From Novosphingobium sp. (GTDB lineage Bacteria > Pseudomonadota > Alphaproteobacteria > Sphingomonadales > Sphingomonadaceae), in the NCBI GenBank assembly GCA_047605225.1, contig JASGGD010000002.1, positions 7,696 through 71,695 on the forward strand: 64,000 nt of DNA, read 5' to 3'. The translations under genes were made by a program, and so were the position numbers. The notes under the pieces are model-generated. The model was given only the letters and a program-made list of their open reading frames with translations, made no database searches and had not been told where the DNA came from. Shown here one piece after another: positions 16,978 to 33,024 of the stretch. The stretch's first letter is position 1. Each line of letters opens with the position of its first letter.

Positions 16978-17035
16978 TCGCAAATGGCACGATTAAGGGA
17001 CAGACATATCCGGCTAGGTGTCGCCATCTCTGACC

Positions 17036-17299
17036 ATGGAATTGGTCCGTATCCTTGCCAGGAATGTTAAGCACCACCGAAAACTGCGTGGTATGACTCA
17101 AGAAAGTCTGGCCCTGTCCATTGAGATGAAACGTAGTTACGTTAGCGGGATAGAGTGCGGAAACAGAAATCCAACCGTCAAAGCGCTAGAGAGAATTGCT
17201 GGCGCGCTTGAAATAAAGCCTAGTCAATTGTTTGATGATGCTGAAGATATTTCGTCTGATAATTACAAGGCGATTCCGAGAGGTCGGAGGCGTTTATAA
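17036..17299 (+). CDS. small XRE-family HTH regulator
   Basis: ORF 17018..17299 (GTG); ATG 17036 preferred. LRGMTQESLALSIEMKRSYVSGIECGNRNPTVKALERIAGAL is a canonical HTH_XRE. The gene is visibly AT-richer than its surroundings. Confidence 0.75.
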   Translation: MELVRILARNVKHHRKLRGMTQESLALSIEMKRSYVSGIECGNRNPTVKALERIAGALEIKPSQLFDDAEDISSDNYKAIPRGRRRL

Positions 17300-17560: not shown

Positions 17561-17998
17561 CTAGGCACGGCCAACACACGATCTTAGGGCCTCCAACCCG
17601 CGGATGGTATCGACCAGGCGTTCCAGCCCCTCGGCACTGTCGATACCTCGTGTGCCGGCATTCACGCTCGCAAACAGAATGAGCTTCGCCATCTCTCGAA
17701 AAACGGCTGGCAGCGCCATCTGACTTTCAAGCCGCTTGCACTGGATGACCTCGACCGACCGGCCTTGGTCAGCAGAACGTCGCGCCCGGCATCGGCGCCA
17801 CGGACCATGTGTGCGGCATCGTCCCAGGTCCGCGCGATGCCGTGCGGGCTGGAGCGTTTTGCGAGTGCATAGCTCAGCCGCTCGAACTCCTCGTCCCCCA
17901 AGTGGAAGATAAGCGAAGCTCTCTAGTCCGGCGCTATCGTCGCTCACCGGTTTTACCCTGCTGATTTCGGCGTCTGCGGCGGCGCCCGAGACGATCAT
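17561..17998 (-). pseudogene. decayed and truncated Mrr-like (PD-QxK) restriction-endonuclease-domain gene
   Basis: A sensible protein is obtained only by joining frames. MIVSG..ESFAYLPLG is frame a and GDEEFERLSYALAKR..GADAGRDVLLTKAGRS is frame b. VEVIQCKRLESQ..FREMAKL is back in frame a. Shifts occur at a GGGG run and at GGTCGGTCG. The F-E-x-L .. GxDxGxD .. hhhQxK pattern matches the N-terminus of the 19607..21523 protein. It ends after about 145 codons. Confidence 0.45.
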
Positions 17999-18053: not shown

Positions 18054-19610
18054 TCAAACATAATATTTGAAGGGCTGCTTTTCGTGGCCCTTGGCTGACC
18101 CCATTGTGAGGACATCGCCAACCATACGCGCAAACCGTACCGTGACCGGCAAGCCGTCATTAAAGTTGCAGCTGTTATAGTTGATCTTGGTCAGGCCCAT
18201 GATGTCCTCGAGGACCGACCGGATCTCGGGCTTGGCATATTTGCTGCGCATGACAGTGATGTGGAGCGGATTTGGGGTCTCCGGCCCGATATAGGTGTCA
18301 AGCTGGGGCACGTAGCCGGTCGTCCAGAGATAGGCCGTCTGCTGGTCGAGCAGGAGCGCTGTGCCGCGCAGGACCGGATAGTCGCCATCACGGAACAGCT
18401 TGGTTTCGCCGCCCGTCGTCCGAATTCGGACGCCGACCACGTTTGTCTCGTCGGAAGCCGCTGCGCAGAACGCGTTCCACTCCTCGTCATTGAAGTAGGT
18501 CTGCCCGTGAATGAAGAGCTCGCGGGGCGGCTCGCCATAGAGCTCCTGATATGTTTCGAGCACGAGATTGAGGAGCCGCTTCGCCGCGTCGGGCTTCAGG
18601 TGATATTCGTAGTCCCCCGACTTCCATGGACCGTTCGCTCCGCGGAATACGAGGCCGTCGCCTTCGTTCAGGAACATCTGCGCTGCGCAGCAGGCATGTC
18701 CCTCGGGGTCGTGGGGGAGGCTCTTGTAGACCATCCCGATATAGCAGACGCCCGGTCGGATTGTCGCCAGCCGCCACGGCGGCTTAGGCTGCGTCTTGTA
18801 GTAGAGACCCGTGGCGAGGTTCCAGGCAACCGTCGCGGCGTCCTGTGTCTTGCGCAGCGGATAGCCCGCCCTGTTCTTGAAAGCTTCAGGCGCCAGCGTG
18901 GTTTCGCGAACCAGCTGGGTCGGTGCGATGTTTAGGAACTCCGCTTTAATACGCCGATGGAAATCCGGCACGTCAGCGAAGATGTCCTCGTCCTTCTGGT
19001 CGATCACGCCGGCGGCCGCCAGAAGCGGGAGGACCTCCTTTGCTTTCTGGCGCCGCGCGAAATCGCCCGGAGCCATGGTGACCCCACTCCGGCGAGACTC
19101 TGGGCGGCAACGATCATAGATGATTTCGGGTAGCGCAAGCACCCACACATCGACGTCCTGCTCCTCGTTTCGCAGGTGCTTTCGGACCCGCTCGATGAAG
19201 AGCTTTGCAACCTTGTCGACAGCTTCGTGCAGGTTGACGATGCTCGTCGCCTTCTCGATATCCGCCAGCGGGATCGAGAGCGTGCTGATCTCGTCAGGCT
19301 CGAAACTGATCCCGAATGCTTCCTCCAGGCCAGGAAAGTTCGCAAGATGGAGGCGGTCCTGCTTTTCGCCCTTGCCCGGTGGCGGGACGGCGACGACCTG
19401 CTGGATCTTGCGCGCCCAAGAGCGAAAATGGCTGATCCCTTCCGTCGTCCCGACGACGCCGATACGGATATGGCGCGTTTTTTTCGAACGGGCGTGAGGG
19501 CCATAGAGGAAGAGGCCATCCTTGGGATGAGGGCTTCGCTGGCCGAGCGCAAATTCGAGATCAGGCTCGTGGATATGGTCGACAATGAGCGATGTCTCCG
19601 GGAACTTCAT
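18054..19610 (-). CDS. short prokaryotic Argonaute (MID-PIWI only)
   Basis: 518 aa, with no room for N/PAZ domains. PIWI-like blocks (..[19 protein letters not shown].., ..[10 protein letters not shown].., ..[23 protein letters not shown]..). The start codon overlaps the stop of the upstream APAZ-domain gene (ATGA at 19607-19610), as in SPARTA/SPARSA operons. Confidence 0.75.
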
Positions 19611-21523
19611 GCCGGATCCTCCTCATCGGCTTCAGGGCGACCCAGCGTACTCAGGTCAGTTTCTTCATCGTCTCCGCTTTGGGTATCCGGCAGGTCCGTG
19701 CTTATGGGCGACGAGAACAGGATGGGGGCTGCTTCCAGCACGACATCCTCAGACGCCGAAAGGCGAAGGCGTATATAGGCGGATTCTCCCGACAGCAGTT
19801 CGAGGAAGGCGAGCATCCGGCCATACCATTGCTTGTTGCGCCAACCCTTGCAGATCGTGCGCCGCAGCTTATGCATCTTCCGCTTGTCGTCAATTTCGAG
19901 GCCTTCTGTCGTGCCGTTGTCGCCGGCAAACAGGACTCGAGACTTCAGCTTGAAGTGCCAGAAGGGCCAGAAAAACGGAAGCGCAGTGACACCAAACTGC
20001 CAGATATGCCCTTTGGCGCGGTTCCGTAGCATGGAGGATCGCCGGTCACCCTGCTTGCCCCAGGGGATGCGCTGACCGATTGCCGCGACGGCGGTGGAGG
20101 CATGAAAGCCGGATCCGCCAGAGAACTGATACTCGATCAGCCCCTTTTCCCGGCAGAAGGCGAACCAGGCCTGTTTCATCATCACGTTGATTAAATTCTG
20201 GGCCGGCTGCTTCTCGAGACGCAGCTTGCGATCCCCCTCCTGAACAAGCCTATCCAACGCGATGCTGCGCTTCAGCTTAAAACGACCGACCGACGCGAAG
20301 GCCTCGGCGATTGCGTCTTCGCTCTCGAATGTCAGGATGCCGCGTCCTTGTACGGCGACTGGAAAAGGGTAGTTTGCCGCAAAGCGCTTCATTCGGTCGA
20401 GATCGACCACACCGGATGGCTCGTAAAAGTGGATGGCATCCGGCGCCTCGACGATCCGCAGCCAGTTGGATGTGAGCCGCTCCGGTTCATTCTTGAGCGG
20501 GATGGCGCCCCTGCGGCGAAAAATCTCCCAATTGGGGTCGATCGTGGCTGTATCGGTGCGCCGGGGAGCGCGCTGTCGTTTGAGCGTGTCGAGAAGAGTG
20601 CTCAGGCCCTCGCCCCAGCCGCGCACGAAATCGACGGCGATCGCGTCGCCGAGTCCTTTGATCTTGCGGCCCTGCTCGAGCTTGAGCTGGATGATGAAGC
20701 GGTTGTCGTCGATCGCCTTGGCAACGTCGAGTGCGATGTCGATGTCGTCCTGCATGGCCTGATCATCGGCGGTTGTATTACGGCACACGAGAAGGACTTT
20801 CGCCGCCCGGTGTTCGAGGGCGCGACTGACCTCTCGCCGCCAGCGATCGCCCGGTTGCAAAGTCAGGATGTCGGCAAAAACCAGATAGCCTTCTGCTTCC
20901 AGTTTCGGCGCAAGCCAAAGAGCGAATTCATCGTCCGATGGCGACGCCTTCAGGATGAAGAGAATGTCGCGGGCCGGCGGCTCGGCATCGGGGCTGGCAA
21001 CCGCCGGCAAAAGCCGAGCGAGTGCCGGCGGGACCGGCGCGGGTTTGGGCATGGCGTCGGAGACGGCCTGCGTGACGATGGATTTGAGGACCGCACTATC
21101 CTGTGCCCATAGCGCCTGATGCGCGATGACGATGGCTGGGAACTTGCGGAGCAGGCTGTTGAGGTCGCCCTGACCGAAGATGTCCCCGGTGCTGTGCAGC
21201 CACGGTCCGATCGCGCCTGCCAGGTCAGCCTTGTTCTTTGGGGTGAGAGTAGCCGATGTCGTCAGGATGTATCGACTGGGCTCCAGAGCATCGATGCTAG
21301 CGCGCTCCGTCTTCATCTTCGACAGGAGTTTGGCGGATCCGGAGCGCAGATACTGCTTCGCCTGGAGAATGATTGCGCCATCCGCAGTGGCATGCCGCCC
21401 GTCCATCCCGTCGTCAGGTCCTTCAGGGAAGGCTTCGAACCGAAGCCCCAGTTCAGCACCGATCAGATCGCGGCAAAGATCCTCAAATTGCGAATGGGAT
21501 AGGTTGGCGAAATCATAATCCAT
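19607..21523 (-). CDS. Mrr-like nuclease / TIR / APAZ three-domain partner of short pAgo
   Basis: ORF 19607..21559 (TTG); ATG 21523 preferred. The N-terminus [32 protein letters not shown] is the Mrr-type D..QxK motif. The middle [43 protein letters not shown] aligns by hand to the remembered MapSPARTA TIR. The C-terminal blocks [55 protein letters not shown] and an acidic tail match APAZ. Confidence 0.8.
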
Positions 21524-21761: not shown

Positions 21762-23429
21762 ATGCCCCACCATATCTTCTTCTCCTGGCAGAGTGACACC
21801 GACAGCCGGATCGGCCGAGGCCTCATTCAATGGGCTCTCGATCGCGCTATCAGGGCGGTCAACGCAGACGCCGATGTCGACCCCGCCGATCGCGATCTGC
21901 GAGCCGATCGTGACACCGCCAATGTCCCTGGCATGCCACCCATTACTGATACGATTTTCGGCAAGATCGATCGCGCCGTCGCGTTCCTGTCCGACCTGAC
22001 TCACGTTGCGACCCGGGCCAATGGAGAGCGGTCACCCAATCCGAACGTCCTGCTTGAGCATGGCTGGGCGCTCAAGTCTCGCGGGTGGGGCAGCATCATC
22101 GGTGTCATGAACACCGCAATGGGGCATCCGGACGAGCATCCGCTTCCGTTTGATCTGCGGCACTTTCGCCGGCCGATCCTCTATCATTGCCCAGCAGATG
22201 CTGAGGATGAAGAGCGGCAGACGTCTCGTCTCGAGTTGCAGAAAAACCTGGAAGCGGCGCTTCGCGCGATCCTGGATGATGAGGTGCTTCGAGCTGCGCG
22301 CGTCCCGGCAGCACCCGCCGAACCCCATCCCCATGACGTCGCGCTGCTTCAGCGATACCGCCAGCAGCTCCCCGAGCGCCTCCGCCAATTTCTCCGGGAG
22401 CATAATTTCGGCACCCCCTATCCGCGGCGCGCGCTCGATCCGGTGGAGGAGATTGCCGCGACTTGGGCGGGCGCAGAATATGATTTCGAGGACGAGGTGT
22501 TGCAGGCCGCCGCGGTGGCGCTGCGCGTGGAGGCCCGATCGCTCATGGAACTTGTCTACGAGCGAATCCACATCATGCCCGCGAACGACAGGCTCGTCTG
22601 GGCGAAGACCGACTATGATGCTGCTCACGGAACCCAACAGGCGACGCTCGATGCGATAAAGGAGCTCAACACGAGGTCGGATCGTCTGATCGCCTCGATC
22701 GATGCTTTCGAGAAAGCGGGGCGCGCGCGTGTCAGGGTTGCGCTCGCGGCGCCGGCTGCGCCTCAGGTTGATCGACGTTGGGAAGCGGCCAGCACCACCA
22801 TCTCCGAGCTGGCCGCCGACCGCATGCGCGGCGGATTGCCGGGGATTATATCGACGCCCAGCATGACCCTTCGGATAGTACCCCTTGCGGCGATGGACAG
22901 GCCGGCTCTCGTTCCCAAGCGTGTCCAGGCGGCTACGGTTCACTTCCCGCCTCACATTGAGGCGCGTGTTTATTCAGACACCGACGAACGCCAGTGGTGG
23001 AGCTATGGTTTGCCGCTGAGGCAGACAGCCAACAATCCTGAGACAAGGTGGCTGACGCGGCTCGTCCGGCCGGGCGCAATCGAATATGAGGCGACGATCG
23101 GCGACAGGATCGACAACGATCCGGAAATCGTTGTTGATGGCCGTGACCTTGAAGCCGCGATCGTCACGCATCTGGAGCGCTTGACGCGTATAGCTGAGGC
23201 GGTCGGTCTCGGCGGACCAGGGTTGGTGGCCATCTCTTTTCGCGGCATCGAAGACGTCCAGTTGGCAAGAGTGCGGCCGGGTGGCCGGAAAATCCGAAAG
23301 CCCGAGCTTTTCCTGCCGGAATTGAGAGCCGAAGATCTCGGCGCGCCGATCCAGCCGCAGTTGCGCGACCAGTTCAATGTCCTGTGGCAGGCGTCAGGCT
23401 GGGCCGACGGCTCACCCTCTTTCGACTGA
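21762..23429 (+). CDS. TIR-like / nucleoside 2-deoxyribosyltransferase-like N-domain protein with unknown C-terminal region (candidate defence gene)
   Basis: 555 aa. N-terminus HIFFSWQSDTDS.. then ..AVAFLSDLT.......NPNVLLEHGWAL..GSIIGVMN....PFDL. This is the Rossmannoid pattern I associate with TIR-like/NDT-like (COG4271-type) domains. Transcribed divergently from the pAgo operon. Confidence 0.55.
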   Translation: MPHHIFFSWQSDTDSRIGRGLIQWALDRAIRAVNADADVDPADRDLRADRDTANVPGMPPITDTIFGKIDRAVAFLSDLTHVATRANGERSPNPNVLLEHGWALKSRGWGSIIGVMNTAMGHPDEHPLPFDLRHFRRPILYHCPADAEDEERQTSRLELQKNLEAALRAILDDEVLRAARVPAAPAEPHPHDVALLQRYRQQLPERLRQFLREHNFGTPYPRRALDPVEEIAATWAGAEYDFEDEVLQAAAVALRVEARSLMELVYERIHIMPANDRLVWAKTDYDAAHGTQQATLDAIKELNTRSDRLIASIDAFEKAGRARVRVALAAPAAPQVDRRWEAASTTISELAADRMRGGLPGIISTPSMTLRIVPLAAMDRPALVPKRVQAATVHFPPHIEARVYSDTDERQWWSYGLPLRQTANNPETRWLTRLVRPGAIEYEATIGDRIDNDPEIVVDGRDLEAAIVTHLERLTRIAEAVGLGGPGLVAISFRGIEDVQLARVRPGGRKIRKPELFLPELRAEDLGAPIQPQLRDQFNVLWQASGWADGSPSFD

Positions 23430-25062
23430 CGGGATCGACGTGGAGCTCAAGCCCCCACCACCTCAAACCGGAGATGCCGGCCTCACCGCGTTCCGCTCGT
23501 CAGCGAAACTGTACGAGGACACGCTACGAACCAGATTTTCCCGCGAATTTTATCGTCAGGATCTCGCACGGTGGCAGAAGCTCTATGCGACGCTTTCCGG
23601 TAAGAGAGAGCCTTGCTCTGCCGCAGCCGGGCATTTTGCGAAGCTTTCACGCCTGTGCGGTGAGTTGCTGTCGGAATATGGCCCAGAGGCACCGCCCAAG
23701 CGTCGGCAGCCGAAAGCGGTCAACTTGCTGCCGCTGTCTTACCCGGACTTTTCAGACGACATTACGCACCGGATCCATTTTCTGGAGGGCCCTGGGATCA
23801 GGCGGCAGCGCGGGGTGGAGCTGGCGGGTTATGCTCCGGCGGTGTCAAGGCAGACATCGGGTCGGGGCCGCATCCTGATCTCGGTGGGTGTACGCCGGGA
23901 TCAGGTTCGCCTCTTCGAGCGGCTAGTCGAGGCTGTCGGGGAGCTCGCCCAGGGCGACTATGAAGCCGCCGGCTTCGACATTGGCTACGTGATGCGTCCG
24001 CCGGACATTCCGCAGGGCCAGTCCTGGACTGCCAATCCGCTCGATCCCGCCCTCCCGATAGCGCGCATATGGGCCGATAATCATCATTCGCGAGGCTATA
24101 GCCGCCAGGCTCGGCTCTTGGGTGACCAGTGGAGCGGCGTCGACGGCAAAGGGCTTCCTGACGATCTGCCTGACTTGTCGGAAGGTCCTTGGGACCCCGA
24201 TCCATTGTGGCAGCGGGTGCTGGACCTCACCGAAGCCGATCGGTTGGTCGAGGCCATGGAGCTCGTCGCGGCGGTCCCGGGCAAGGACCGCGAGCCGCTT
24301 TATGACGAAGTGATCTACCTCCGCTTTCTCACGGCCACGAAGCTGCAAGCTCAGGACCTACGCCTGTTGGCGCGCAAGCATGCCGAGACATCACTGATCG
24401 CAGGCCGGCTGCTCGAGGAGTTTGAAGGGTTCATCGGTCATCTCCAGGCCGAATTTGATCTCAACCCGCCTGCGCTTCACGAGATGACCCGTCTTCGGCC
24501 GGATTTCGGCTCGACCATGCTGCCGCCAATGCCGCCAGCCTCGGATTGGGCTGCTTATCGCCGCTACAAGGCGCAGTTCGTCAATCCGAGCGGCCAGAGG
24601 GGGCGCATCTTCTCGATCAATATCGGCGTCGCCGACACCGGCGCTTCCGCATTCTTCGCGGATGCCATGGTCGCGGCCGAAGAAGCCTTTCGTCGCGCGC
24701 GATCGATACCCGAGATCGGCCGTGGCTGGGTCTCGGAGGTCGCGCTCCTCGATCTTGTTCGCACGATCTGGCCGTCAGCGATCCACCAATGGCGACCGGC
24801 GTTCCTCGGGATGCAGTCCATCGACATCCACATCCCCGAACTGCGGCTGGCGATTGAATATCAGGGGCAGCAGCATTATGAGCCGGTCGCGCTGTTCGGA
24901 GGGCAGGAAGGCTTTGAGCTTACCCGATCGCGCGATGAGAAAAAGCGCATGCTCCTGGAGCGCCACGGGGTGCGGTTGCTCGAATGGCGCTACGATATCG
25001 CGATCACGCGAGCCGAACTGTTGGCCCAGCTCACGGCATTGGGCGTTGTAATTCCCGACTAG
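23377..25062 (+). CDS. hypothetical protein with C-terminal Vsr/DUF559-like PD-(D/E)xK nuclease domain
   Basis: 561-aa ORF; an alternative in-frame GTG at 23440 lies just after the upstream stop. C-terminus ..GWVSEVALLDLVRTIWP..FLGMQSIDIHIPELRLAIEYQGQQHYEPV..RDEKKRMLLERHGVRLLEW matches the D..(E)YxG..H endonuclease fold of Vsr/DUF559-type domains. Confidence 0.6.
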   Translation: MSCGRRQAGPTAHPLSTDGIDVELKPPPPQTGDAGLTAFRSSAKLYEDTLRTRFSREFYRQDLARWQKLYATLSGKREPCSAAAGHFAKLSRLCGELLSEYGPEAPPKRRQPKAVNLLPLSYPDFSDDITHRIHFLEGPGIRRQRGVELAGYAPAVSRQTSGRGRILISVGVRRDQVRLFERLVEAVGELAQGDYEAAGFDIGYVMRPPDIPQGQSWTANPLDPALPIARIWADNHHSRGYSRQARLLGDQWSGVDGKGLPDDLPDLSEGPWDPDPLWQRVLDLTEADRLVEAMELVAAVPGKDREPLYDEVIYLRFLTATKLQAQDLRLLARKHAETSLIAGRLLEEFEGFIGHLQAEFDLNPPALHEMTRLRPDFGSTMLPPMPPASDWAAYRRYKAQFVNPSGQRGRIFSINIGVADTGASAFFADAMVAAEEAFRRARSIPEIGRGWVSEVALLDLVRTIWPSAIHQWRPAFLGMQSIDIHIPELRLAIEYQGQQHYEPVALFGGQEGFELTRSRDEKKRMLLERHGVRLLEWRYDIAITRAELLAQLTALGVVIPD

Positions 25063-25192: not shown

Positions 25193-28087
25193 CTAGCGGC
25201 CGTGGCAGCGTTTGTATTTCTGCCCTGAGCCGCACGGGCAGCGTTCGTTTCGCCCGACCTTCTTGCGCGGTTCTATGGATGGTCTCACACCGCTCCGCTG
25301 GTCAAAAAGTGCCTGGAGTGGGGCGGGTATATCGACGCGGCGCTGAGGTGGGCCACCATAGCGTCGGACATTCTCGATGATCTGCTTCTGATCCTGGAAT
25401 GCCGCACGGTGCCCGGGAGCCATCGCCTCCTCATAAGGGCCAAGGCGCCGCACCTCATTCGCCGCCGCCTGATGATCGCCGCAATAGGCGAGAACCACCG
25501 CGTAGAGCGCCCGGAGCTCGAGCACATCGGACGTAAGGCCGATCGCCTGGATCACCGGGAAAATGTTGCGCTCGATCGTATAGCGGGCGGACTCGAAATC
25601 ATTCACCCACACAAACTCATCGACCAGGTCCATGCCGACGCGCACAAAGGATGAGTATGCCTGTGCGAGTTCGTAAAATTTCATCGCGTGGATGCGCGCC
25701 ATGGTGGAGCGCTGGCTCTTCCGACCGGCCGCCTGGGCGAGAAGGTCGAGCGTGTCGGCGAGATGTTTCAGCTGGTCGGTATTATCGCGTCCTTTGGGCA
25801 AAAGGGGCCGGAGCTGGGGAGGGTTGCGGCCCATGACGTCGTCAGGCGTCAGGCCAAGGGCATCATAATATTCTTCGACCAACTCAACCGCTTCGTCGAT
25901 CGCCGTCGCGTTGTCGCCCAGCTTGAAAAAGGCAAGCGCGCGGTTGTACCGGAAGACGCGCATATGTTCTGCCTTAGCTGGCAGCCGCTCTTTGACGAGG
26001 CCTAGCATCTCGTCGACCCCCGCGGCGTCCCCGACCATCGACTTGAGCAGCATGCGCTTCATGCCCCAGGCAAGCCATTCGTCCTCGCCAAGTTCATGGT
26101 TGTCGAGAAGCGCCTTCATCGCGTCGATGCGCGTCTCACCTACCTCGGTTTGCCCGGTTCGCAGGTCATTGAACACGAGGCCATCGAGCGCCCAGAGCCG
26201 GACTTCAGCCTCAGCCGCCTCGTCAGCGGCAATCGCATGAAGATAAGGCTCGATTTCAGGCCAGACGCCCATCTCGTGGAAGAGCTCGTCGGTTGCGAAC
26301 TGGACAAGGATCATCGCGTCGCCCAGCTGCCCGAAAAGGCGAATAAGCAGGTTGAGCTTCCCAATGCTCCAGTCCTCACGGATAGAGCGCATTATGATGC
26401 CGCGCAGGACCTCCCGAGCCTTTTTCTCAAGATCAGGTCCGCGTGAGGTGAGCTCCGCTCTACCAAGCATCCGCACTGCATCATGTATCTTGAGGCCCGT
26501 CATGCCGAACAGTTCGAGCGCTCCGGTCGAGGGCAGGGCGTGCAGGCGCGCAGCCGCTCGCTTCATGTCGAGATCGCAAGCGTCCTGCAGCAGCTTGATT
26601 GCTTCATCCTTTGAAAGTGAAACATCGGCGACACTCAGCACGGCCACGCTTTCCCGCACTTCGGTAGGGAGGCCTTCAAAGGCCCTCCGCAGGATGATCT
26701 CCTGCGCCGTCTCGACGATGTGGGTCTGCGCCTCCACATCTACGCAGAAGCCTTCAATCGATCCGCCATAATCACGCGCGGCGACAGTGCCTGCGTTCAG
26801 GACATAGAAGGGTAGGCCGCCGGTCAGACGTGAAAGGCGCTGGCAGTCTGCAAAGTCCGCGACGCAGCCCGCATCATGGGTTGCTGCGGCAATCGTGTCC
26901 TCATCCCACCCGCTCAGCGCCTCGGCCTGGATACTGAGCCGCGCCTCGAGCGCGGCAACATCCGGGTCCGGCTGGCAAAGGAGGAGCAGACGCAGGTTCG
27001 GCGCGCGACTGACGATCGCCTCGATGTCTGTCGCCGGTATCCGGTGGGCATTGTCGATGACAACATCGGCATGCAGGCCCTCTCTTCCGAGCGTGACGCT
27101 CAGGGTTCCCAACATGTCGAGGCCACTTGCGCCGGGCAGCAGAATTTCGCCGAGCTTGCCGGTCGAGCGGCCGTACATTTTCCCCGCGACCTCGCGCGCC
27201 ACGGCAGAGGCAAGCGCGGGGCCGGGCATCTCGACGACGTCGATGTAGGTGACGGGCAGGGGAGCATGTTGCGCCGCTTCCGCAACCCATGCCGTCTTTC
27301 CGGCGCCCGAAAGCCCCGCGATAATCCGGACAGGCTGTTCTGTCAGCAACGCTGGCTCGTTGATCTGCGCGCGATAGACCGAAGGGGGCGTAGGCAGCTC
27401 CTGCATCTGCACGATCAGCTGCTCGAAGAGCTCTGGTAGCTCAGCCGATGAAAAGCTGTGATCTGACCGTGGTGGAGATCCGGCCGATGCCAACATCACC
27501 TGACTGGCGAGTTTCCATGTCAGTGTTTCCGGCCGGAGCAGGGCGAACGGAAGCTCACCCGCGAGCTCAGAGCATTTCGCGACCGCATCGGAGAGATCGC
27601 GCGGGGGGCAGGGCAGGCACGTTTCCTTTGGCTCAGGACCGTCCGGCCAGTGCAATGCTACATCCTTCGGCCAGTCGGCGGATCCGAGCTGCTTCTCCAA
27701 CGGACCGTTCGGAGCAGCATTCGAGGCGATGACGAAACTCGCAGCACCAGCGCGATCACCGTTGACGTGCTTAGCCCGGATCTCGCTGAACCGTTCCAGT
27801 GCTCCGGAAATGTCACCTGCGGCAAGCTTTCCGACACGCGTCTTGACCTGAACATATATCCGCCGGTCCGGCAGGACGATCTCAACATCCTCATCGCCTT
27901 CAACGATGACTTGTTGGACGCCGGCAGCCCCGGCCAGGAGCAGGGACATCGCGCCATAGAGGTGCTGATAGAGGAAGCCGCGATGAACGGCTTCGATCCG
28001 GATCAACTGCTTTTCGTCGATGACCGCGAGGGTATCAACGGGAGAAACTTCGCCGCTGGAATTCGCGGCCTCTGCGTCTTCGGCCAA
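25193..28087 (-). CDS. STAND-type P-loop NTPase with N-terminal Cap4/DUF4297-like nuclease domain, helical-repeat C-region and terminal SEC-C motif (Avs-like candidate)
   Basis: 964 aa with a TTG start after GAGG. N-domain HRGFLYQHLY..VIVEGDEDVEIVL..IYVQVKTR (E/D..QxK). Walker A IIAGLSGAGKTAW and Walker B ADVVIDNAH. Long alpha-helical C-half, ending ..RNERCPCGSGQKYKRCHGR (SEC-C zinc motif). Confidence 0.7.
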   Translation of the reverse strand: MAEDAEAANSSGEVSPVDTLAVIDEKQLIRIEAVHRGFLYQHLYGAMSLLLAGAAGVQQVIVEGDEDVEIVLPDRRIYVQVKTRVGKLAAGDISGALERFSEIRAKHVNGDRAGAASFVIASNAAPNGPLEKQLGSADWPKDVALHWPDGPEPKETCLPCPPRDLSDAVAKCSELAGELPFALLRPETLTWKLASQVMLASAGSPPRSDHSFSSAELPELFEQLIVQMQELPTPPSVYRAQINEPALLTEQPVRIIAGLSGAGKTAWVAEAAQHAPLPVTYIDVVEMPGPALASAVAREVAGKMYGRSTGKLGEILLPGASGLDMLGTLSVTLGREGLHADVVIDNAHRIPATDIEAIVSRAPNLRLLLLCQPDPDVAALEARLSIQAEALSGWDEDTIAAATHDAGCVADFADCQRLSRLTGGLPFYVLNAGTVAARDYGGSIEGFCVDVEAQTHIVETAQEIILRRAFEGLPTEVRESVAVLSVADVSLSKDEAIKLLQDACDLDMKRAAARLHALPSTGALELFGMTGLKIHDAVRMLGRAELTSRGPDLEKKAREVLRGIIMRSIREDWSIGKLNLLIRLFGQLGDAMILVQFATDELFHEMGVWPEIEPYLHAIAADEAAEAEVRLWALDGLVFNDLRTGQTEVGETRIDAMKALLDNHELGEDEWLAWGMKRMLLKSMVGDAAGVDEMLGLVKERLPAKAEHMRVFRYNRALAFFKLGDNATAIDEAVELVEEYYDALGLTPDDVMGRNPPQLRPLLPKGRDNTDQLKHLADTLDLLAQAAGRKSQRSTMARIHAMKFYELAQAYSSFVRVGMDLVDEFVWVNDFESARYTIERNIFPVIQAIGLTSDVLELRALYAVVLAYCGDHQAAANEVRRLGPYEEAMAPGHRAAFQDQKQIIENVRRYGGPPQRRVDIPAPLQALFDQRSGVRPSIEPRKKVGRNERCPCGSGQKYKRCHGR

Positions 28088-28711: not shown

Positions 28712-29764
28712 ATGACCTATAATCTGCCGGCCCTGGGGGGGCTCGCCATCGGGCGCAGCACAGGTTTCGGTCATGACGAGATACCCGCAGCCGTACGTCA
28801 AGCACGCGTTGAAGCCGATCTCCTGTACCGGGTCGCCTCGGCGTATCGCCGGCTGGGATATGTAGTCCATCAGGGGGTGGTGCTCGGCGGTATTCAGGTC
28901 GATCTCGTGATCGAGAACGGCCCGAAGAAAACCCCCGTCGAGATTTCCGGCGAGGCGGGTTCCGGTCAGATCGACAAACTTCGCCGCGACGTTCTTCGCC
29001 TGGCGGCTTTGCGTGGAAGCGACGCTTGGACCGACACGCCGGTCATCATCGTCACTGGCTTCGCAACGCCGGTCACCGCCCATTGGGCGCAACATCAGAC
29101 CGAGGTCCGGATCATCAGGCTCGATGAGCTCGAGGCGGAGGCGGATGCACAGGCGCCACCAAGCCCGGACTTTGCGACCCTGTCCGCCGAAGACCTTGAG
29201 CAGCAGCGCGCGCAGGCTCGCCTCGCGGAACGGGAGACCCTGATCGCACGACTGCGCGCGCACGATGAAGAGGCAGGTCTGCTCACTCCCACAGACTATG
29301 AGAGACTTTGCAAGCAAGTCTTCAGCTTCCTGTTCGATCCCAGCCTGTTCGGCTTCGAGTCACAGACAGGGACGAGCGATGGCGCGAACCGCTACGACTT
29401 CATCTGCCGCATCGGAACGGACCGCGCGTTCTGGAATGCGCTGAAAACCGACTTCCGCACCCGCGCGATCCTCTTCGAGTGCAAGAATTACACGGATCCA
29501 ATCACGGCTGATCAGATCTACTCGACCGAGCGTTATCTCTTCTCGAGCGCGCTGCGCACGGTTTGCTTCCTCATCGCCCGCAAAGGCGGAGACGATAGCT
29601 GTCAGCGCGCAGCCCAAGGGGCTATGCGGGAAAGCGGCAAGCTGATCCTCGTCCTCTCCAATCTGGACCTGATCGAAATGCTTGAATTCGGTGACGACAT
29701 CGACAGCGCGGAAAACCACCTCGACGAGCGTATCTGGCGCTTTATCATCAGCCTGCCACGCTGA
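28712..29764 (+). CDS. restriction-endonuclease-like protein with two PD-(D/E)xK-type modules
   Basis: 350 aa with an AAGGA RBS. Module 1 ..YRRLGYVV...GIQVDLVIENGPKKTPVEIS... Module 2 YERLCKQVFSFLF......NRYDFICRI......AILFECKNYTDPITADQIY (Mrr_cat-like D..ExK). Confidence 0.65.
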   Translation: MTYNLPALGGLAIGRSTGFGHDEIPAAVRQARVEADLLYRVASAYRRLGYVVHQGVVLGGIQVDLVIENGPKKTPVEISGEAGSGQIDKLRRDVLRLAALRGSDAWTDTPVIIVTGFATPVTAHWAQHQTEVRIIRLDELEAEADAQAPPSPDFATLSAEDLEQQRAQARLAERETLIARLRAHDEEAGLLTPTDYERLCKQVFSFLFDPSLFGFESQTGTSDGANRYDFICRIGTDRAFWNALKTDFRTRAILFECKNYTDPITADQIYSTERYLFSSALRTVCFLIARKGGDDSCQRAAQGAMRESGKLILVLSNLDLIEMLEFGDDIDSAENHLDERIWRFIISLPR

Positions 29765-29983
29765 CGCTGGTAGTCCCTACGCTGCAATCGTAGTGCAGAT
29801 ATCCCGCTGGGTCACGGGTTTCGCCGCGCTTCGTCGAGATCATTATAAGGTCCGTACCAGTTAATCGCGATCATCAGGTGTTTCGCGGTCATGCCTTTTC
29901 TCCTATCGCTTTCCTACAGGCTTTGAAGCCGAGGTGAAGAATCAACCCGGACCATTTCGGTCTGTGGCGGGTCTGGGGGATCG

Positions 29984-32650
29984 ATGGGGAAGCTTACCGA
30001 CTGGTGCGCGCAACAGCCCGCATGGGCCATTGACGCCCTGCAACGGGCTGCCGTCGCGGTGACGAGGCCCCCCGAAGACGTGACGGCGCTTATCGACAGG
30101 ATTGGTGCTGCGCACGGCCTGGGCGATGCGGGCGAGCATCCCTGCAGCGTCTTTGCCGAGGCTAGCCTCCGCAGCCCGGTCGATACTCCCGACGACGTCG
30201 TCCTGCGGTCGATCGGACCTGTCATGGGCCTTGACCGTCTCGCGTGCGACCAGATGCTGGCGTTCGCCCATGAGGGCGTCACCATCGTCTTCGGCGACAA
30301 TGGCTCGGGCAAGAGCGGCTACACCCGCGCTCTTCGAAAACTCTGCAACGCCCGGCTCGACGCCGTGCTACAAGGTAATGTCTTCGCGGAAGGCGCCGAA
30401 GCGCCAAAGGCGATTTCCTACAGCTATCATCGCGGCACCGGCGCGCCCAATACGGAAACATGGGCCGACGGGCAGGACAAGCCTGCAGTGCTGCGCGGCG
30501 TAACGCTGCTCGATACCGACAACCTGCGCGTCTATGTCGATGGCAAGAACGAGATCCTGTACCTCCCGCCCGAGGTTGCGTGTATCGGACGGCTCGCGGA
30601 CATGTATCAGGCAGCTGCAACGCATTTCCGGGATCTCATCGCGTCGGCGACCATCCGGCTGAACCGACCTTTCGGCGGGCAGTATCAGCCCGGCACTACG
30701 GCACACGCCCTGATCGGGCGGCTACAGGTCGCGACCGCACACCGCGATCTTCCCGACGCAGCGGCCATCGACGCCGCTGCCGCCTGGTCAGCAGAGACCG
30801 AGGCCGAACTGAACACGCTCAATGCGCAACTCATTCAGGGACCGATCGCCATAGCCGCGCGCTGCGAGCGGATCGCAGTCGCCTGCAATGCCGCCGCAAG
30901 CGACCTCGAACGTGCCGCAGCCCCGCTCGACCATCTCGTGGTCGGGCTCGACTGGCCATTGGTCGTCACCAAGCAGCGGAAGAGCCATGCAGCGGAATCG
31001 CTAGCCGCTGAACAGCTTGGCGGCCAGCCGATCGCGGCGACCGGATCCGATGTCTGGAAGTCGCTTTATCAGCTCGCGCGTCAGTTCGCCGCGGAAGCCA
31101 GCGTCTGCCACCCGTCAGAGGCTTTCGATATTGGAGATCCTTGCCCGCTCTGTCAGCAGCCCCTCGGACAGGATGCGGTGGATCGCCTGACGGCTTTCGA
31201 TGCCTTTGTCGCAGGCCGGGCCACGCAGGAGGCGGCCGATGCCGCGTCAGCCGTCTCCAGCCGACTGACGATATTGCGGGAGCTGACCTTCCGCCCGGAC
31301 GCTGAGCTCACGACCTTACTTGCAGAAGCCGCCGCCGAGAATGAGGGCGGTGCAACGCTGGTTCAGGCCGCAATCGGCTATCACCGGATGTTGGCCGCTC
31401 GCCGCGATGCGGTCGTTCTCCAACTCACCAGCGAACAACGCAGCGATTTCGCCCCGCTTGCACCGTCACCCGCGATCCAGCTGCGGGCGTGGGCGGCCCG
31501 CCTCACAGAACATGCGACGACCTTACGATCGAGCGACCACGATTCGGCAAAGATATCAGCCCGCGTAGCTGAGCTGACGGCACAGCGTCAGATGCATGGG
31601 CAACGCGCAGAAATCCTAGCCAGACGCCTCGAACTCTACACGCTTCACGCCTGGAAAGCCTGCGAAGCTGCGCTCAATACGGCCCCCTTGTCGCGGCTGA
31701 TGTCTACATTGCGCAAGGAGCTCACCACGCCGGCGCTGGAGGCGCGCATTCTGGCCGAGATCCAAGCCCTCGCGCTTCAGCACATCCCACTGAAATTCGC
31801 CGACAAAAGCGATCGCGGGGCGAGCATGTTTGAGGTCGAGCTGCACACCGACAGAAAGGCCAAAAAGGCGCGTGTTCTCAGCGAGGGCGAGCAGCGCGCG
31901 CTCAGTCTGGCATGCTTCCTCGCCGAGTCGCATGTTGCCGGAAAGCGCTCAGCGATCATTCTCGATGATCCGGTGACGAGCCTAGATCACGGTCGCGTCC
32001 GCCGAGTGGCACGACGGCTGGTCGACGAGGCGGCCACTGGCCGACAGGTCATTATCTTCACCCACAATCTTGTCTTCTACCACGAGATAATGCTCGCCTG
32101 CGTCGACCGCGACACGGTGGTAAGTGCCCTGCCCTGCCTGATCCAGCAGGGACCGACCGGCGAATTTGGTATGGTAACGGTCGGCGACGAACCTTGGGTT
32201 GCCCGCAAAGTCAAGGATCGCGAGACGAGCCTGCGCAAGATGCTCGACGGAATTTCCGACACGCTGCCGACCAGTGATCCGGGCTATCGCCAGTCGTGCA
32301 CGTCCTTTTACGCCGCCCTGCGCGAAACATGGGAACGCGCCGTCGAGGAAATCGTCCTGAACGATGTTGTCCGTCGGTTCGGATCAGATGTCGGCACGCT
32401 ACGGCTCGGCGGCGTTGAGGTCAGCGACGACGACTACATGATCGTCTATCGCGCGATGAAGCGCGCTTCGGAGCATTCGGGACACGATCAGGCCGCAGGC
32501 CGCCAAATCGAGACACCGGACAAAGCGCAGATGCAGGCGGACCTTATGGAACTTATCGGATTCAGGACCAGCAAAGCCAAGGCAAACAGGTACGCGGAGG
32601 ACCGCCGTAAGGCAATAGCGGCACGGCCACCCAAACCAGCCTTCGGCTAA
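29984..32650 (+). CDS. AAA_13-family ABC-type ATPase with coiled-coil insert and CxxC hook (PrrC/RloC-like candidate)
   Basis: 888 aa. Walker A FGDNGSGKSGYTRAL, signature LSEGEQRALSLACFLAE, Walker B AIILDDPVTSLD. A roughly 500-aa helical insert contains DPCPLCQQPL. The C-terminal region has LRETWERAVEE ... ASEHSGHD, reminiscent of the R/E/H arrangement of anticodon nucleases. Confidence 0.65.
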   Translation: MGKLTDWCAQQPAWAIDALQRAAVAVTRPPEDVTALIDRIGAAHGLGDAGEHPCSVFAEASLRSPVDTPDDVVLRSIGPVMGLDRLACDQMLAFAHEGVTIVFGDNGSGKSGYTRALRKLCNARLDAVLQGNVFAEGAEAPKAISYSYHRGTGAPNTETWADGQDKPAVLRGVTLLDTDNLRVYVDGKNEILYLPPEVACIGRLADMYQAAATHFRDLIASATIRLNRPFGGQYQPGTTAHALIGRLQVATAHRDLPDAAAIDAAAAWSAETEAELNTLNAQLIQGPIAIAARCERIAVACNAAASDLERAAAPLDHLVVGLDWPLVVTKQRKSHAAESLAAEQLGGQPIAATGSDVWKSLYQLARQFAAEASVCHPSEAFDIGDPCPLCQQPLGQDAVDRLTAFDAFVAGRATQEAADAASAVSSRLTILRELTFRPDAELTTLLAEAAAENEGGATLVQAAIGYHRMLAARRDAVVLQLTSEQRSDFAPLAPSPAIQLRAWAARLTEHATTLRSSDHDSAKISARVAELTAQRQMHGQRAEILARRLELYTLHAWKACEAALNTAPLSRLMSTLRKELTTPALEARILAEIQALALQHIPLKFADKSDRGASMFEVELHTDRKAKKARVLSEGEQRALSLACFLAESHVAGKRSAIILDDPVTSLDHGRVRRVARRLVDEAATGRQVIIFTHNLVFYHEIMLACVDRDTVVSALPCLIQQGPTGEFGMVTVGDEPWVARKVKDRETSLRKMLDGISDTLPTSDPGYRQSCTSFYAALRETWERAVEEIVLNDVVRRFGSDVGTLRLGGVEVSDDDYMIVYRAMKRASEHSGHDQAAGRQIETPDKAQMQADLMELIGFRTSKAKANRYAEDRRKAIAARPPKPAFG

Positions 32651-32845
32651 GCGCCACAGCGACACTCGTCAGAATCGGCTTGCGCGGGCTGCAGTAGCCA
32701 CCTGCGTCCAGGTCGTTTGGAAATTGTCCTCATCGCCATAATATGGTCGGGCACCGACTGCCCCTGCCAACCCTTGACTTGGTCGAGGAGCAAACTGATC
32801 TAGGGCTTTGCAAACGGCCGGTTCTGGACGACAGCCGCCGAGAAT

Positions 32846-32920
32846 GCGGACCTTCCGCACCTGAGGAGGTAAAATCGGCGGCTGAACGGCGACAAAGGGT
32901 CGGGCGCAGAAGGGCCTCCA
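32846..32920. repeat. 75-nt imperfect direct repeat, copy 1
   Basis: GCGGACCTTCCGCACCTGAGGAGGTAAAATCGGCGGCTGAACGGCGACAAAGGGTCGGGCGCAGAAGGGCCTCCA aligns without gaps to 34640..34714, at roughly three quarters identity by eye. Shared blocks: GCGGACCTTCC, CACCTG, GGCGACAAAGGGTCG. Confidence 0.7.
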
Positions 32921-33024
32921 CTAGTCCACGGTGGGAATGCCTGCCAGGCGCCCGTTCCACTCATCTCTCCATGCCAAGTCTTAATCGCCGTTGCCCCCCG
33001 CGAGCCAGCGGACGAAGACGGCGG

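What the first reader, a model, noticed from the sequence alone, without database searches (positions are those of the whole stretch)
18054..21523. Short pAgo operon whose APAZ partner carries both an Mrr-type nuclease and a TIR domain
This is the strongest candidate for an uncharacterised system. The 518-aa MID-PIWI Argonaute is ATGA-coupled to a 638-aa protein. The TIR and APAZ parts of that protein align block by block with the SPARTA TIR-APAZ sequence as I remember it. It also has an extra N-terminal domain of about 185 aa with an intact Mrr-like D..QAK motif ([25 protein letters not shown]). Characterised short-pAgo systems use a single effector type: SIR2 or TIR NADases, or DREN/other nucleases. 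Mrr-containing APAZ architectures have, to my recollection, been noted only in bioinformatic surveys. A dual or switched effector (NAD+ depletion and/or DNA cleavage on guide-dependent target recognition) would be new biochemistry.
Basis: partly seen in the sequence, partly recalled or inferred. Interest (0 to 1): 0.85.

Follow-up and report, generated by a model that had tools for sequence, protein, structure and literature searches.

The report
Argonaute defence pair with added nuclease
This is a two-gene bacterial Argonaute defence system of an already catalogued but untested type, in which a DNA-cutting domain has been added and the usual NAD-destroying site has lost its key residue, so it probably kills by cutting DNA rather than by draining NAD+.

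Summary
A 638-aa Mrr–TIR–APAZ gene (19607-21523, minus strand) overlaps by ATGA a 518-aa short pAgo gene (18054-19610). Both are clear SPARTA relatives: E 1e-33 and 1e-110 to solved structures, and Foldseek E 1e-25.

The architecture is not new. Koopal et al. 2022 name "Mrr-TIR-APAZ" as a SPARTA subclade, and PADLOC holds a model called REase-TIR-PNTD. I found no functional study of it.

Comparative analysis adds one point. The TIR catalytic Glu (MapSPARTA E77) is present in almost all Mrr-less TIR-APAZ proteins, including the closest ones. It is absent in 155 of 155 Mrr-fused homologs (147 Asp, as in the window; 8 Asn). In the same sequences the Mrr motif (E14, D37, D41, Q54-x-K56) is invariant. 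A separately derived Cap4-nuclease–TIR–APAZ family also often lacks the Glu. The Mrr module recurs at 50-62% identity at the N-terminus of STAND/Avs-like defence proteins. The TIR domain is the most conserved part of the protein.

Best reading (about 0.45): guide-dependent target binding drives SPARTA-like oligomerisation through a TIR that mainly acts as a scaffold, and this activates the Mrr nuclease. A dual NADase-plus-nuclease output (about 0.3) is not excluded. It is a new variant of a known kind, of moderate interest.

The parts
18054..19610 (-). Short pAgo (MID-PIWI), 518 aa
   Evidence: phmmer E 1e-110 to BabSPARTA Ago 8qlo_B, full length. PADLOC pAgo_I PDLC02378, 718 bits. 77-93% identical to the pAgo downstream of Mrr-TIR-APAZ genes in other genomes.
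18795..18959 (-). MID 5'-phosphate pocket residues H218, K222 (HRRIK, 18945-18959), Q232 (18915-18917) and K272 (18795-18797)
   Evidence: These residues align with identical residues of BabAgo (FHdqlK / PTQ / YK). Positions verified. Their assignment as the HK-type pocket rests on established knowledge of pAgo MID domains.
19607..19610 (-). ATGA stop/start overlap that couples the two genes
   Evidence: Sequence read directly. The homolog in L017 has the same 4-bp overlap.
19618..19624 (-). GAGGAGG Shine-Dalgarno sequence for the pAgo gene, inside the 3' end of the partner gene
   Evidence: Sequence read directly.
19607..21523 (-). Mrr-TIR-APAZ partner gene, 638 aa plus stop
   Evidence: PADLOC PDLC02400, 1108 bits over the full length, and PDLC02416 'Aga_REase-TIR-PNTD1-PNTD2', 943 bits. 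Pfam Mrr_cat and TIR_2.
21119..21523 (-). Mrr-type PD-(D/E)xK nuclease domain (aa 1-135). Motif residues: E14 (21482-21484), DDGMD 37-41 (21401-21415), QAK 54-56 (21356-21364)
   Evidence: Pfam Mrr_cat above the gathering score. E14, D37, D41, Q54 and K56 are present in every Mrr-fused sequence that covers these positions (E14 119/119, the others 121/121; all 35). The AF2 domain model has pLDDT 82 and alpha-beta-beta-beta-alpha-beta order. The best Foldseek hits are PD-(D/E)xK nucleases, but they are weak (E 0.013-0.1).
20969..21118 (-). Poorly conserved helical/disordered linker (aa 136-185)
   Evidence: Mean pairwise identity is 0.53, against 0.71-0.80 for the other domains. pLDDT is 53-73.
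20564..20968 (-). TIR domain (aa 186-320)
   Evidence: Pfam TIR_2, E 5e-14. Aligns to SPARTA TIR. It is the most conserved domain in the family, at 0.80 mean identity.
20744..20749 (-). D259-D260, where D260 occupies the position of the SPARTA catalytic Glu (MapTIR-APAZ E77)
   Evidence: HMMER and MAFFT alignments agree. The nearest Mrr-less relatives read EEIDIA where the window reads DDIDIA. Asp in 121/121 close homologs. Asn in the P0121 lineage.
19724..20563 (-). APAZ (N-L1-L2-like) domain (aa 321-600)
   Evidence: Aligned to SPARTA APAZ. Foldseek also matches SPARSA, SPARDA and SPARHA APAZ chains and AfAgo-N.
19610..19723 (-). Acidic C-terminal tail (aa 601-638; ...[26 protein letters not shown])
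   Evidence: Sequence read directly. E620, E621, D623 and T626-P630 are invariant. An acidic tail autoinhibits SPARTA by occupying the nucleic-acid cleft (PMC10899771).

Best explanation
A SPARTA-derived short-pAgo abortive-infection/anti-plasmid module whose lethal output has moved, wholly or mainly, from the TIR NADase to an N-terminally fused Mrr-type PD-(D/E)xK nuclease. Proposed steps: (1) The pAgo and the APAZ part of the partner form a heterodimer. It loads a 5'-phosphorylated small RNA guide in the HK-type MID pocket, and the acidic C-terminal tail of the partner blocks the nucleic-acid cleft. This step is inferred from homology to SPARTA. (2) Pairing of the guide with invader ssDNA displaces the tail and triggers pAgo-pAgo and TIR-TIR association into a higher-order assembly, as in SPARTA tetramers. 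This step is inferred; the strong conservation of the TIR domain fits it. (3) The assembly brings the flexibly tethered Mrr domains together. They become active as an oligomer and degrade DNA non-specifically, which kills or arrests the cell or destroys the plasmid. This step is inferred from the invariant catalytic motif and from use of the same module as the N-terminal effector of STAND/Avs-like proteins. (4) The TIR has Asp (Asn in a sister lineage) in place of the catalytic Glu, so it contributes little or no NAD+ hydrolysis and serves mainly as the assembly and licensing scaffold. This step is inferred.
For: Homology to SPARTA in both subunits. Conserved MID pocket residues and acidic tail. 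The partner-then-pAgo pair is conserved as a mobile two-gene unit across Sphingomonadales and Hyphomicrobiales, and its neighbours vary. The catalytic Glu, which is essential in MapSPARTA because E77A abolishes NADase activity and toxicity, is Glu in nearly all of about 70 Mrr-less TIR-APAZ cluster representatives, including the closest relatives P0122, P0124, P0127 and P0129. It is Asp in 147 and Asn in 8 of 155 Mrr-fused proteins, and never Glu. The Mrr residues E14, D37, D41, Q54 and K56 are invariant in the same set. The Mrr-fused clade is nested among Glu-bearing relatives (86% and 96% bootstrap), so Glu is ancestral. An independently derived Cap4_nuclease-TIR-APAZ family, also paired with a SPARTA-type pAgo, carries Q, D, V or N at the same site in most members. 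Only 9 of 137 TIR positions are fixed differently from the Glu-bearing sister group, and they include the EE pair and the 'FIS' Ser. The Mrr module recurs at 50-62% identity at the N-terminus of nSTAND3/PDC-S73, Avs2-like, nSTAND5 and TPR-PIN proteins. The TIR domain is the most conserved domain, as expected for a multi-interface scaffold. Degenerate TIRs acting as scaffold partners have a precedent in plant sensor NLRs such as RRS1.
Against: There are no experimental data. Asp keeps a carboxylate and is invariant across 147 sequences, so some residual or altered catalysis is possible. I found no published measurement of a Glu-to-Asp change in a TIR NADase. The expectation of a large activity loss rests on my recollection of analogous enzymes (CD38 E226D, diphtheria toxin E148D). 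The strong TIR conservation is equally compatible with a still-active enzyme. The nuclease-fold assignment rests on a modest Pfam score and weak Foldseek hits (best E 0.013), and a profile search found no solved relative. Some Cap4-fused members keep Glu, so nuclease fusion does not force Glu loss. Oligomerisation was not modelled because no multimer prediction was available.
Confidence: 0.45

Rival explanations
1. True dual effector. The Asp-bearing TIR still hydrolyses NAD+, perhaps more slowly or with altered products, and the Mrr nuclease is also activated by the same guide-dependent assembly. Cells suffer both NAD+ depletion and DNA damage.
For: Asp keeps the carboxylate and is invariant in 147 sequences. 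The TIR is the most conserved domain. The other proposed pocket residues (W228, S/T194, R229) match those of Glu-bearing sister proteins. The Mrr motif is invariant.
Against: None of the 155 Mrr-fused proteins has Glu, whereas Glu is almost universal elsewhere. A well-supported sister lineage with the same architecture and an intact Mrr motif has Asn, which cannot act as the catalytic carboxylate. The Cap4-fused family shows relaxed constraint at the same site.
Confidence: 0.3
2. Canonical SPARTA output. The TIR NADase is the only effector. The Mrr-like domain is a non-catalytic or regulatory add-on, for example a DNA-binding, modification-sensing or localisation domain.
For: The body of the system is clearly SPARTA. 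Mrr-family domains in type IV restriction enzymes work with DNA-recognition functions (established knowledge). The Foldseek support for a nuclease fold is weak.
Against: All five PD-(D/E)xK motif residues are invariant in 155 sequences, which is not expected for a purely binding domain. The catalytic Glu of the supposed sole effector is missing. In STAND proteins the same module sits in the N-terminal effector position.
Confidence: 0.1
3. The Mrr domain is a processing nuclease rather than a suicide effector. It either generates guides or ssDNA substrates from invader DNA, or cleaves the recognised target DNA locally. That would give targeted interference without cell death.
For: It is an active-looking nuclease tethered by a flexible ~50-aa linker close to the guide-target duplex. 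Guide biogenesis for short pAgos is not fully understood (general knowledge).
Against: No evidence supports this specifically. Characterised nuclease-type short pAgo systems (SPARDA, SPARHA) act through collateral, non-specific cleavage after oligomerisation. The module's other hosts are STAND-type abortive-infection proteins.
Confidence: 0.08

Closest known systems
SPARTA (short pAgo + TIR-APAZ; MapSPARTA, CrtSPARTA, BabSPARTA; clade S2A)
   Same: Two-gene operon with TIR-APAZ upstream of a ~510-aa MID-PIWI pAgo. Both proteins are homologous over their full length (E 1e-33 and 1e-110; Foldseek E 1e-25). They share the HK-type MID pocket and the acidic C-terminal tail.
   Different: The window protein has an extra 135-aa Mrr nuclease domain and a ~50-aa linker at the N-terminus. 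The catalytic Glu (E77) is Asp. Other proposed pocket and interface residues also differ: W46 is Arg, Y105 is Ile, and the segment holding R114 is deleted. The W46/Y105-type differences are shared with Glu-bearing proteobacterial relatives.
Mrr-TIR-APAZ subclade of SPARTA, as catalogued by Koopal et al. 2022 (PMC9097488) and by PADLOC model PDLC02416
   Same: The domain architecture and the operon partner are identical, and the window pair is a member.
   Different: Nothing differs in architecture. The catalogue entries carry no functional data, and in the passages I read they do not mention loss of the catalytic Glu.
Nuclease-type short pAgo systems: SPARDA (DREN-APAZ), SPARHA (HNH-APAZ), and Mrr-APAZ of Kordia jejudonensis ('SPARMA'); clade S2B
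   Same: A short pAgo controls a nuclease effector fused N-terminally to APAZ. Target recognition induces oligomerisation and collateral nuclease activity. This is the proposed working analogy.
   Different: Those systems have no TIR between the nuclease and APAZ, and they assemble as filaments through Ago and effector contacts. Their pAgos are more distant (E 1e-35 to 1e-47, against 1e-110 for SPARTA Agos). The S2B Mrr-like effectors are annotated as SMEK-type, not Pfam Mrr_cat.
STAND/Avs-type defence NTPases with N-terminal Mrr-like nuclease effectors (PADLOC PDC-S73, Avs2-like, nSTAND3/5)
   Same: They carry the same N-terminal ~155-aa Mrr module at 50-62% identity.
   Different: Their sensor is a STAND NTPase that recognises phage proteins, not a guide-loaded Argonaute.
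Catalytically degenerate TIR domains that act as scaffolds or regulators (plant sensor NLR RRS1 paired with RPS4)
   Same: The TIR keeps its fold and interfaces but lacks the catalytic Glu.
   Different: That is a eukaryotic paired-NLR context, where the output is still the NADase of the partner TIR and not a nuclease.

Membership tests
Short pAgo system, clade S2A (SPARTA sensu lato) | pAgo of ~500 aa with MID and PIWI domains only | tested here: met
   518 aa. Full-length alignment to SPARTA Agos of 507 aa at E 1e-110. PADLOC pAgo_I.
Short pAgo system, clade S2A (SPARTA sensu lato) | PIWI lacks the DEDX catalytic tetrad | not tested
   Inferred only from close homology to inactive SPARTA Agos and from the statement in PMC9097488 that all short pAgos lack DEDX. 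No explicit alignment to an active Ago was made.
Short pAgo system, clade S2A (SPARTA sensu lato) | APAZ-domain partner encoded immediately upstream in the same operon | tested here: met
   ATGA overlap. The pair is conserved in 13 intact loci and in L017.
Short pAgo system, clade S2A (SPARTA sensu lato) | TIR domain fused N-terminally to APAZ | tested here: met
   Pfam TIR_2, E 5e-14. Aligned to 8fex_A. Foldseek E 1e-25.
Short pAgo system, clade S2A (SPARTA sensu lato) | Catalytic Glu of the TIR NADase (MapTIR-APAZ E77) | tested here: not met
   D260 occupies this position. Asp or Asn in 155/155 Mrr-fused homologs.
Short pAgo system, clade S2A (SPARTA sensu lato) | Conserved MID 5'-phosphate pocket and acidic autoinhibitory C-terminal tail | tested here: met
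   H218, K222, Q232 and K272 align with identical BabAgo residues. The tail DDEETD...EADEEDPA has invariant acidic positions.
Short pAgo system, clade S2A (SPARTA sensu lato) | Guide-RNA/target-ssDNA-dependent tetramerisation and NAD+ depletion | not testable with these tools
   Needs biochemistry. No multimer prediction was available.
Mrr-TIR-APAZ subclade (Koopal et al. 2022; PADLOC PDLC02416) | Mrr (IPR007560 / PF04471) domain fused N-terminally to TIR-APAZ, in an operon with a short pAgo | tested here: met
   Mrr_cat 23.4 bits against a cutoff of 21. 40/41 relatives match. PDLC02416 scores 943 bits. Definition taken.
Mrr-type PD-(D/E)xK nuclease (Pfam Mrr_cat) | Catalytic D...(E/Q)xK motif, plus an upstream Glu on helix 1 | tested here: met
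   E14, D41-x12-Q54-A-K56, invariant in 155 sequences. The correspondence to E. coli Mrr D203/Q217/K219 is from memory.
Mrr-type PD-(D/E)xK nuclease (Pfam Mrr_cat) | Restriction-endonuclease-like alpha-beta-beta-beta-alpha-beta fold | tested here: inconclusive
   The AF2 domain model (pLDDT 82) has the expected element order. The top Foldseek hits are PD-(D/E)xK nucleases (Can2, XisH, NucS, MUS81), but only at E 0.013-0.1 and TM 0.32-0.40. The profile search found no PDB relative.
Mrr-type PD-(D/E)xK nuclease (Pfam Mrr_cat) | Metal-dependent DNA cleavage | not testable with these tools
   Needs an enzyme assay.
Nuclease-type short pAgo systems of clade S2B (SPARDA/SPARHA/SPARMA) | Nuclease effector fused directly to APAZ (no TIR), and a pAgo of the S2B lineage | tested here: not met
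   A TIR lies between the Mrr domain and APAZ. The pAgo is much closer to SPARTA Agos (E 1e-110) than to SPARHA/SPARDA Agos (E 1e-35 to 1e-47).

The most novel reading that the evidence does not exclude
In this subclade the TIR domain has stopped being an enzyme and survives only as a target-triggered assembly platform that licenses a captured Mrr nuclease. The same effector takeover happened independently with a Cap4 nuclease. That would make nuclease-TIR-APAZ systems natural intermediates showing how short-pAgo immune modules swap outputs, and an example of a prokaryotic TIR used purely as a scaffold. A more radical sub-case, which I consider unlikely, is that the Asp-TIR has acquired a different chemistry that cooperates with the nuclease.
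Probability: 0.4. Interest if true: 0.65.

Novelty: new variant of a known kind. Interest (0 to 1): 0.5.

Why it matters
Short pAgo systems are being developed as programmable nucleic-acid detectors, and they serve as models for how one sensor can drive different suicide effectors. If the model holds, the Mrr-TIR-APAZ subclade would show an effector replacement caught in the act. A TIR NADase would have been turned into an assembly scaffold for a nuclease that was borrowed from STAND/Avs proteins. That would give a direct test of whether TIR oligomerisation alone can activate an unrelated effector. It would also provide an RNA-guided, DNA-triggered DNase built on the well-understood SPARTA chassis. 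If both activities are present instead, it would be the first dual-output short pAgo system. Either outcome can be tested with a handful of point mutants.

Tried and rejected
(1) A profile search with the N-domain alignment against PDB sequences returned only noise (E about 1), so no solved relative supports the fold. (2) Foldseek on the N-domain model gave only weak hits. I treat these as consistent with a PD-(D/E)xK fold, not as proof. (3) I considered the ~650-aa TIR-APAZ proteins that keep the Glu as a possible 'nuclease-fused but Glu-retaining' control. Their N-domain is unrelated to the Mrr module (hhalign probability 0.4%) and has no Pfam match; my by-eye guess of DUF488 was not supported. 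They are therefore uninformative for this question. (4) A search for published Glu-to-Asp data in TIR NADases found nothing. (5) Promoter and terminator scans around the operon gave no more sites than chance. (6) I asked whether the neighbouring genes (555-aa, 561-aa and 964-aa ORFs, and the HTH gene) belong to the system. They are absent from 15 related loci, apart from one weak HTH match and one AAA-ATPase match, so I reject them as components. (7) tblastn of the Mrr module against the window found no second copy. The frameshifted PD-(D/E)xK remnant at 17561-17998 is unrelated at BLAST level. (9) Literature searches for functional work on Mrr-TIR-APAZ or Cap4-TIR-APAZ found none. The library lacks most subscription-journal papers, so absence is not proof.
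Full report
OBSERVATION. One is a 518-aa ORF at 18054-19610. The other is a 638-aa ORF from the ATG at 21523 to the stop at 19607-19609. They overlap by ATGA, and a GAGGAGG sits 7 nt upstream of the downstream ATG. Homologs are 636-644 aa and begin MxYDF, which supports the ATG at 21523 over the upstream TTG at 21559.

Pfam finds Mrr_cat at residues 6-95 (E 6.8e-5, 23.4 bits against a gathering score of 21) and TIR_2 at 194-311 (E 5e-14) in the upstream protein. 40 of 41 relatives also match Mrr_cat. Residues 185-634 align with the solved MapSPARTA TIR-APAZ at E 1.3e-33. An AF2 model of the whole protein matches SPARTA TIR-APAZ chains at Foldseek E 1e-25. The downstream protein aligns end to end with SPARTA short pAgos at E 1e-110.

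IS THE ARCHITECTURE NEW? No. PADLOC-DB (2023) already holds a model named 'Aga_REase-TIR-PNTD1-PNTD2', which scores 943 bits on this protein. A second model matches it from end to end at 1108 bits. Koopal et al. 2022 (PMC9097488) define clade S2A as '(Mrr-)TIR-APAZ and pAgo'. [quoted passage not shown] Later papers repeat this classification.

The family is common. At least 120 clusters (at 90% identity) of full-length proteins are 63-97% identical to the window protein. They come from Sphingopyxis, Sphingomonas, Novosphingobium, Bradyrhizobium, Mesorhizobium, Aminobacter, Tistrella and many metagenomes. I found no paper that tests this architecture. A November 2025 paper still summarises S2A simply as 'TIR domains'.

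WHAT THE COMPARISON ADDS. MapSPARTA needs E77 of the TIR domain, because E77A abolishes both NADase activity and toxicity. In the HMMER alignment to MapTIR-APAZ, E77 falls on D260 of the window protein. I aligned the TIR regions of 82 TIR-APAZ cluster representatives taken from an exhaustive search of 1.84 billion proteins. Glu occupies this column in nearly all proteins that lack a nuclease domain. That includes the closest Mrr-less relatives of the window protein: P0122 (56% identical, 'LEEIDIA' against the window's 'QDDIDIA'), P0124, P0127 and P0129.

The Mrr-fused proteins never have Glu. Asp is present in 121 of 121 sequences in the window's own group. In the second set of 35 sequences (which includes the window protein), 8 have Asn and the rest Asp. 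The 8 with Asn are the Qipengyuania/Parasphingorhabdus lineage around P0121 plus P0348. Over the 155 distinct Mrr-fused sequences the tally is 147 Asp, 8 Asn and 0 Glu. In these sequences the Mrr residues E14, D37, D41, Q54 and K56 do not vary.

The P0121 gene is followed, with a 4-bp overlap, by a 518-aa pAgo that is 77% identical to the window's. The Asn lineage is therefore a bona fide pAgo system.

A neighbour-joining tree of the TIR-APAZ region recovers the Mrr-fused proteins as one clade (86% bootstrap). That clade is nested within a group that also contains Glu-bearing, Mrr-less proteins (96% bootstrap). Glu is therefore the ancestral state, and its loss coincides with the gain of the Mrr domain.

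A SECOND, INDEPENDENT CASE. The representative search also found P0270, a 745-aa Cap4_nuclease-TIR-APAZ protein (Pfam E 5e-20 and 3e-17). Its family comprises about 15 clusters down to 39% identity. These genes are followed by an overlapping 505-aa ORF that is 41% identical to the window pAgo (E 7e-127). In this family the catalytic column reads Q in eight members, E in three, V in two, D in one and N in one. The Cap4-fused clade has 100% bootstrap support. It lies in a different part of the tree, next to canonical MapSPARTA-type proteins, and never groups with the Mrr-fused clade (0 of 100 replicates). A nuclease domain has therefore been added in front of TIR-APAZ twice, and both times the constraint on the TIR catalytic Glu was lifted.

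THE MRR MODULE. The first ~155 residues recur at 50-62% identity at the N-terminus of many otherwise unrelated proteins of 364-1341 aa. These carry nSTAND3 or nSTAND5 NTPase domains, HEAT/TPR repeats, a TPR-GreAB-C-PIN domain or an FGE-sulfatase domain. PADLOC classes them as PDC-S73 or finds Avs2-like NTPase cores. In STAND/Avs proteins the N-terminal position is the effector position.

A domain-only AF2 model (pLDDT 82) has the alpha-beta-beta-beta-alpha-beta order of a PD-(D/E)xK core. E14 lies on helix 1, D41 next to the first long strand, and Q54-A-K56 on the following strand. The top Foldseek hits are PD-(D/E)xK nucleases (the Can2 nuclease domain, XisH, NucS, MUS81, EcoO109I). They are weak, however, at E 0.013-0.1, and a sequence profile finds no solved relative. 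I therefore treat the nuclease assignment as well supported by motif and family evidence, and only weakly supported by structural comparison.

IS THE TIR DECAYING? No. Within the Mrr-fused family the TIR domain is the most conserved segment, at 0.80 mean pairwise identity. The Mrr core is at 0.71, APAZ at 0.72 and the linker at 0.53. Only 9 of 137 TIR positions are fixed differently from the Glu-bearing sister group. They include both residues of the 'EE' pair (now DD or DN) and the Ser of the beta-A 'FIS' motif (now L or I). The domain is clearly under selection. This fits a scaffold that must keep several interfaces (TIR-MID and TIR-TIR), as seen in the SPARTA tetramer. It also fits an enzyme that is still active. 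This is the main uncertainty.

MECHANISM. I consider the following sequence most likely (confidence about 0.45).
- The pAgo and the APAZ part of the partner form a heterodimer that binds a 5'-phosphorylated RNA guide. The pocket residues H218, K222, Q232 and K272 are conserved.
- The acidic tail of the partner guards the nucleic-acid cleft, as it does in SPARTA.
- Pairing with invader ssDNA triggers pAgo-pAgo and TIR-TIR assembly.
- The assembly brings together the Mrr domains, which hang on a flexible ~50-aa linker. This activates non-specific DNA cleavage.
- The TIR contributes little or no NAD+ hydrolysis.

Only the homology and conservation statements are shown here. Every mechanistic step is inferred. 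The chief rival is a true dual output, in which the Asp-TIR keeps some activity (confidence about 0.3). Less likely readings are a canonical NADase-only system with a non-catalytic Mrr domain (about 0.1) and an Mrr domain used for guide or target processing (about 0.08).

CONTEXT. The pair behaves as a self-contained mobile unit. In 13 intact loci from other genomes the partner is always followed directly by the pAgo, but the flanking genes differ. Some copies are decayed: an insertion of about 1 kb in the pAgo of Sphingomonas faeni (L004), and frameshifts in L014 and L015.

In the window the pair lies in a lower-GC stretch (0.57-0.60) that looks like a defence island. It includes a Cro/C1-type HTH gene, two unannotated ORFs of 555 and 561 aa, a 964-aa protein with weak Cap4/LmuA-like, AAA and SEC-C matches, an 888-aa AAA_13 ATPase and a DUF6880 protein. 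None of these travels with the pair. Promoter and terminator scans were uninformative.

VERDICT. The claim of a previously unrecognised architecture is not correct. The system remains functionally untested. The absence of the catalytic Glu, together with an invariant Mrr motif and a parallel Cap4 case, gives a concrete and testable prediction of an effector switch. I rate it as a new variant of a known kind, with interest 0.5.

Noticed in passing
window 17561-17998 (- strand): Just downstream of the pAgo lies a frameshifted remnant of another PD-(D/E)xK gene. One frame reads LGDEEFERLSYALAKR...GADAGRDVLLTKAGRS and the next reads VEVIQCKRLESQMALPAVFREMAKLILFA. This is an Mrr-like FE...D...QCK pattern split by a frameshift. 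It has no BLAST similarity to the partner's Mrr module and no Pfam or PADLOC hit as called.
   Followed up: partly
L019 4001-7754 (and P0270-P0284): A Cap4_nuclease-TIR-APAZ family of about 745 aa is paired with an overlapping 505-aa SPARTA-type pAgo. Its TIR catalytic position is Q, D, V or N in most members. I found no paper mentioning this architecture.
   Followed up: partly
proteins P0191, P0194, P0208, P0225, P0232, P0233, P0239, P0254, P0256, P0263, P0269 (not in the window): A group of ~650-aa TIR-APAZ proteins carries a conserved ~180-aa N-terminal domain with motifs such as 'DLRxxPRFD' and 'GPxxFLVD'. It has no Pfam match and is unrelated to the Mrr module. These proteins keep the catalytic Glu.
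   Followed up: partly
window 25193-28087 (- strand): A 964-aa protein has a weak N-terminal Cap4_nuclease/LmuA-like match, an AAA_22 P-loop region and a C-terminal SEC-C zinc motif. It is possibly another stand-alone defence protein.
   Followed up: no
window 21762-25062 (+ strand): Two ORFs of 555 and 561 aa overlap by 53 nt and are transcribed divergently from the pAgo operon. Neither has a significant Pfam or PADLOC match. By eye, the C-terminus of the 561-aa ORF (LAIEYQGQQHY...RDEKKRMLLERHGVRLLEWRY) resembles a DUF559/Vsr-like endonuclease motif. Neither ORF is found next to the pAgo pair in other genomes.
   Followed up: partly
window 28712-34458 (+ strand): Further island genes: a 350-aa ORF with a weak REase_MTES_1575 match, an 888-aa AAA_13/AAA_21 ABC-type ATPase, and a 571-aa DUF6880 protein (E 7e-181). 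A 37%-identical homolog of the ATPase lies about 5.5 kb upstream of the pAgo pair in a Hyphomicrobium MAG (L007).
   Followed up: no
L004 9920-12526; L014 8001-9545; L015 8001-11473: Several genomic copies of the Mrr-TIR-APAZ/pAgo pair are inactivated. In Sphingomonas faeni the pAgo is split by an insertion of about 1 kb. The genes are frameshifted or truncated in Chenggangzhangella methanolivorans and Bradyrhizobium murdochi. This suggests the system is costly or frequently lost.
   Followed up: no
protein P0123 (550 aa, not in the window): A TIR-APAZ relative (46% identical) has an ~83-aa N-terminal extension of unknown type and Leu at the TIR catalytic position. It groups with the Mrr-fused clade and its Mrr-less relatives.
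   Followed up: no
window 17018-17299 (+ strand); L014 7542-7820: A Cro/C1-type HTH gene that resembles R-M 'control proteins' lies near the pair. A 37%-identical HTH gene sits immediately upstream of the decayed pair in L014. This may be coincidence or an occasional regulator.
   Followed up: no
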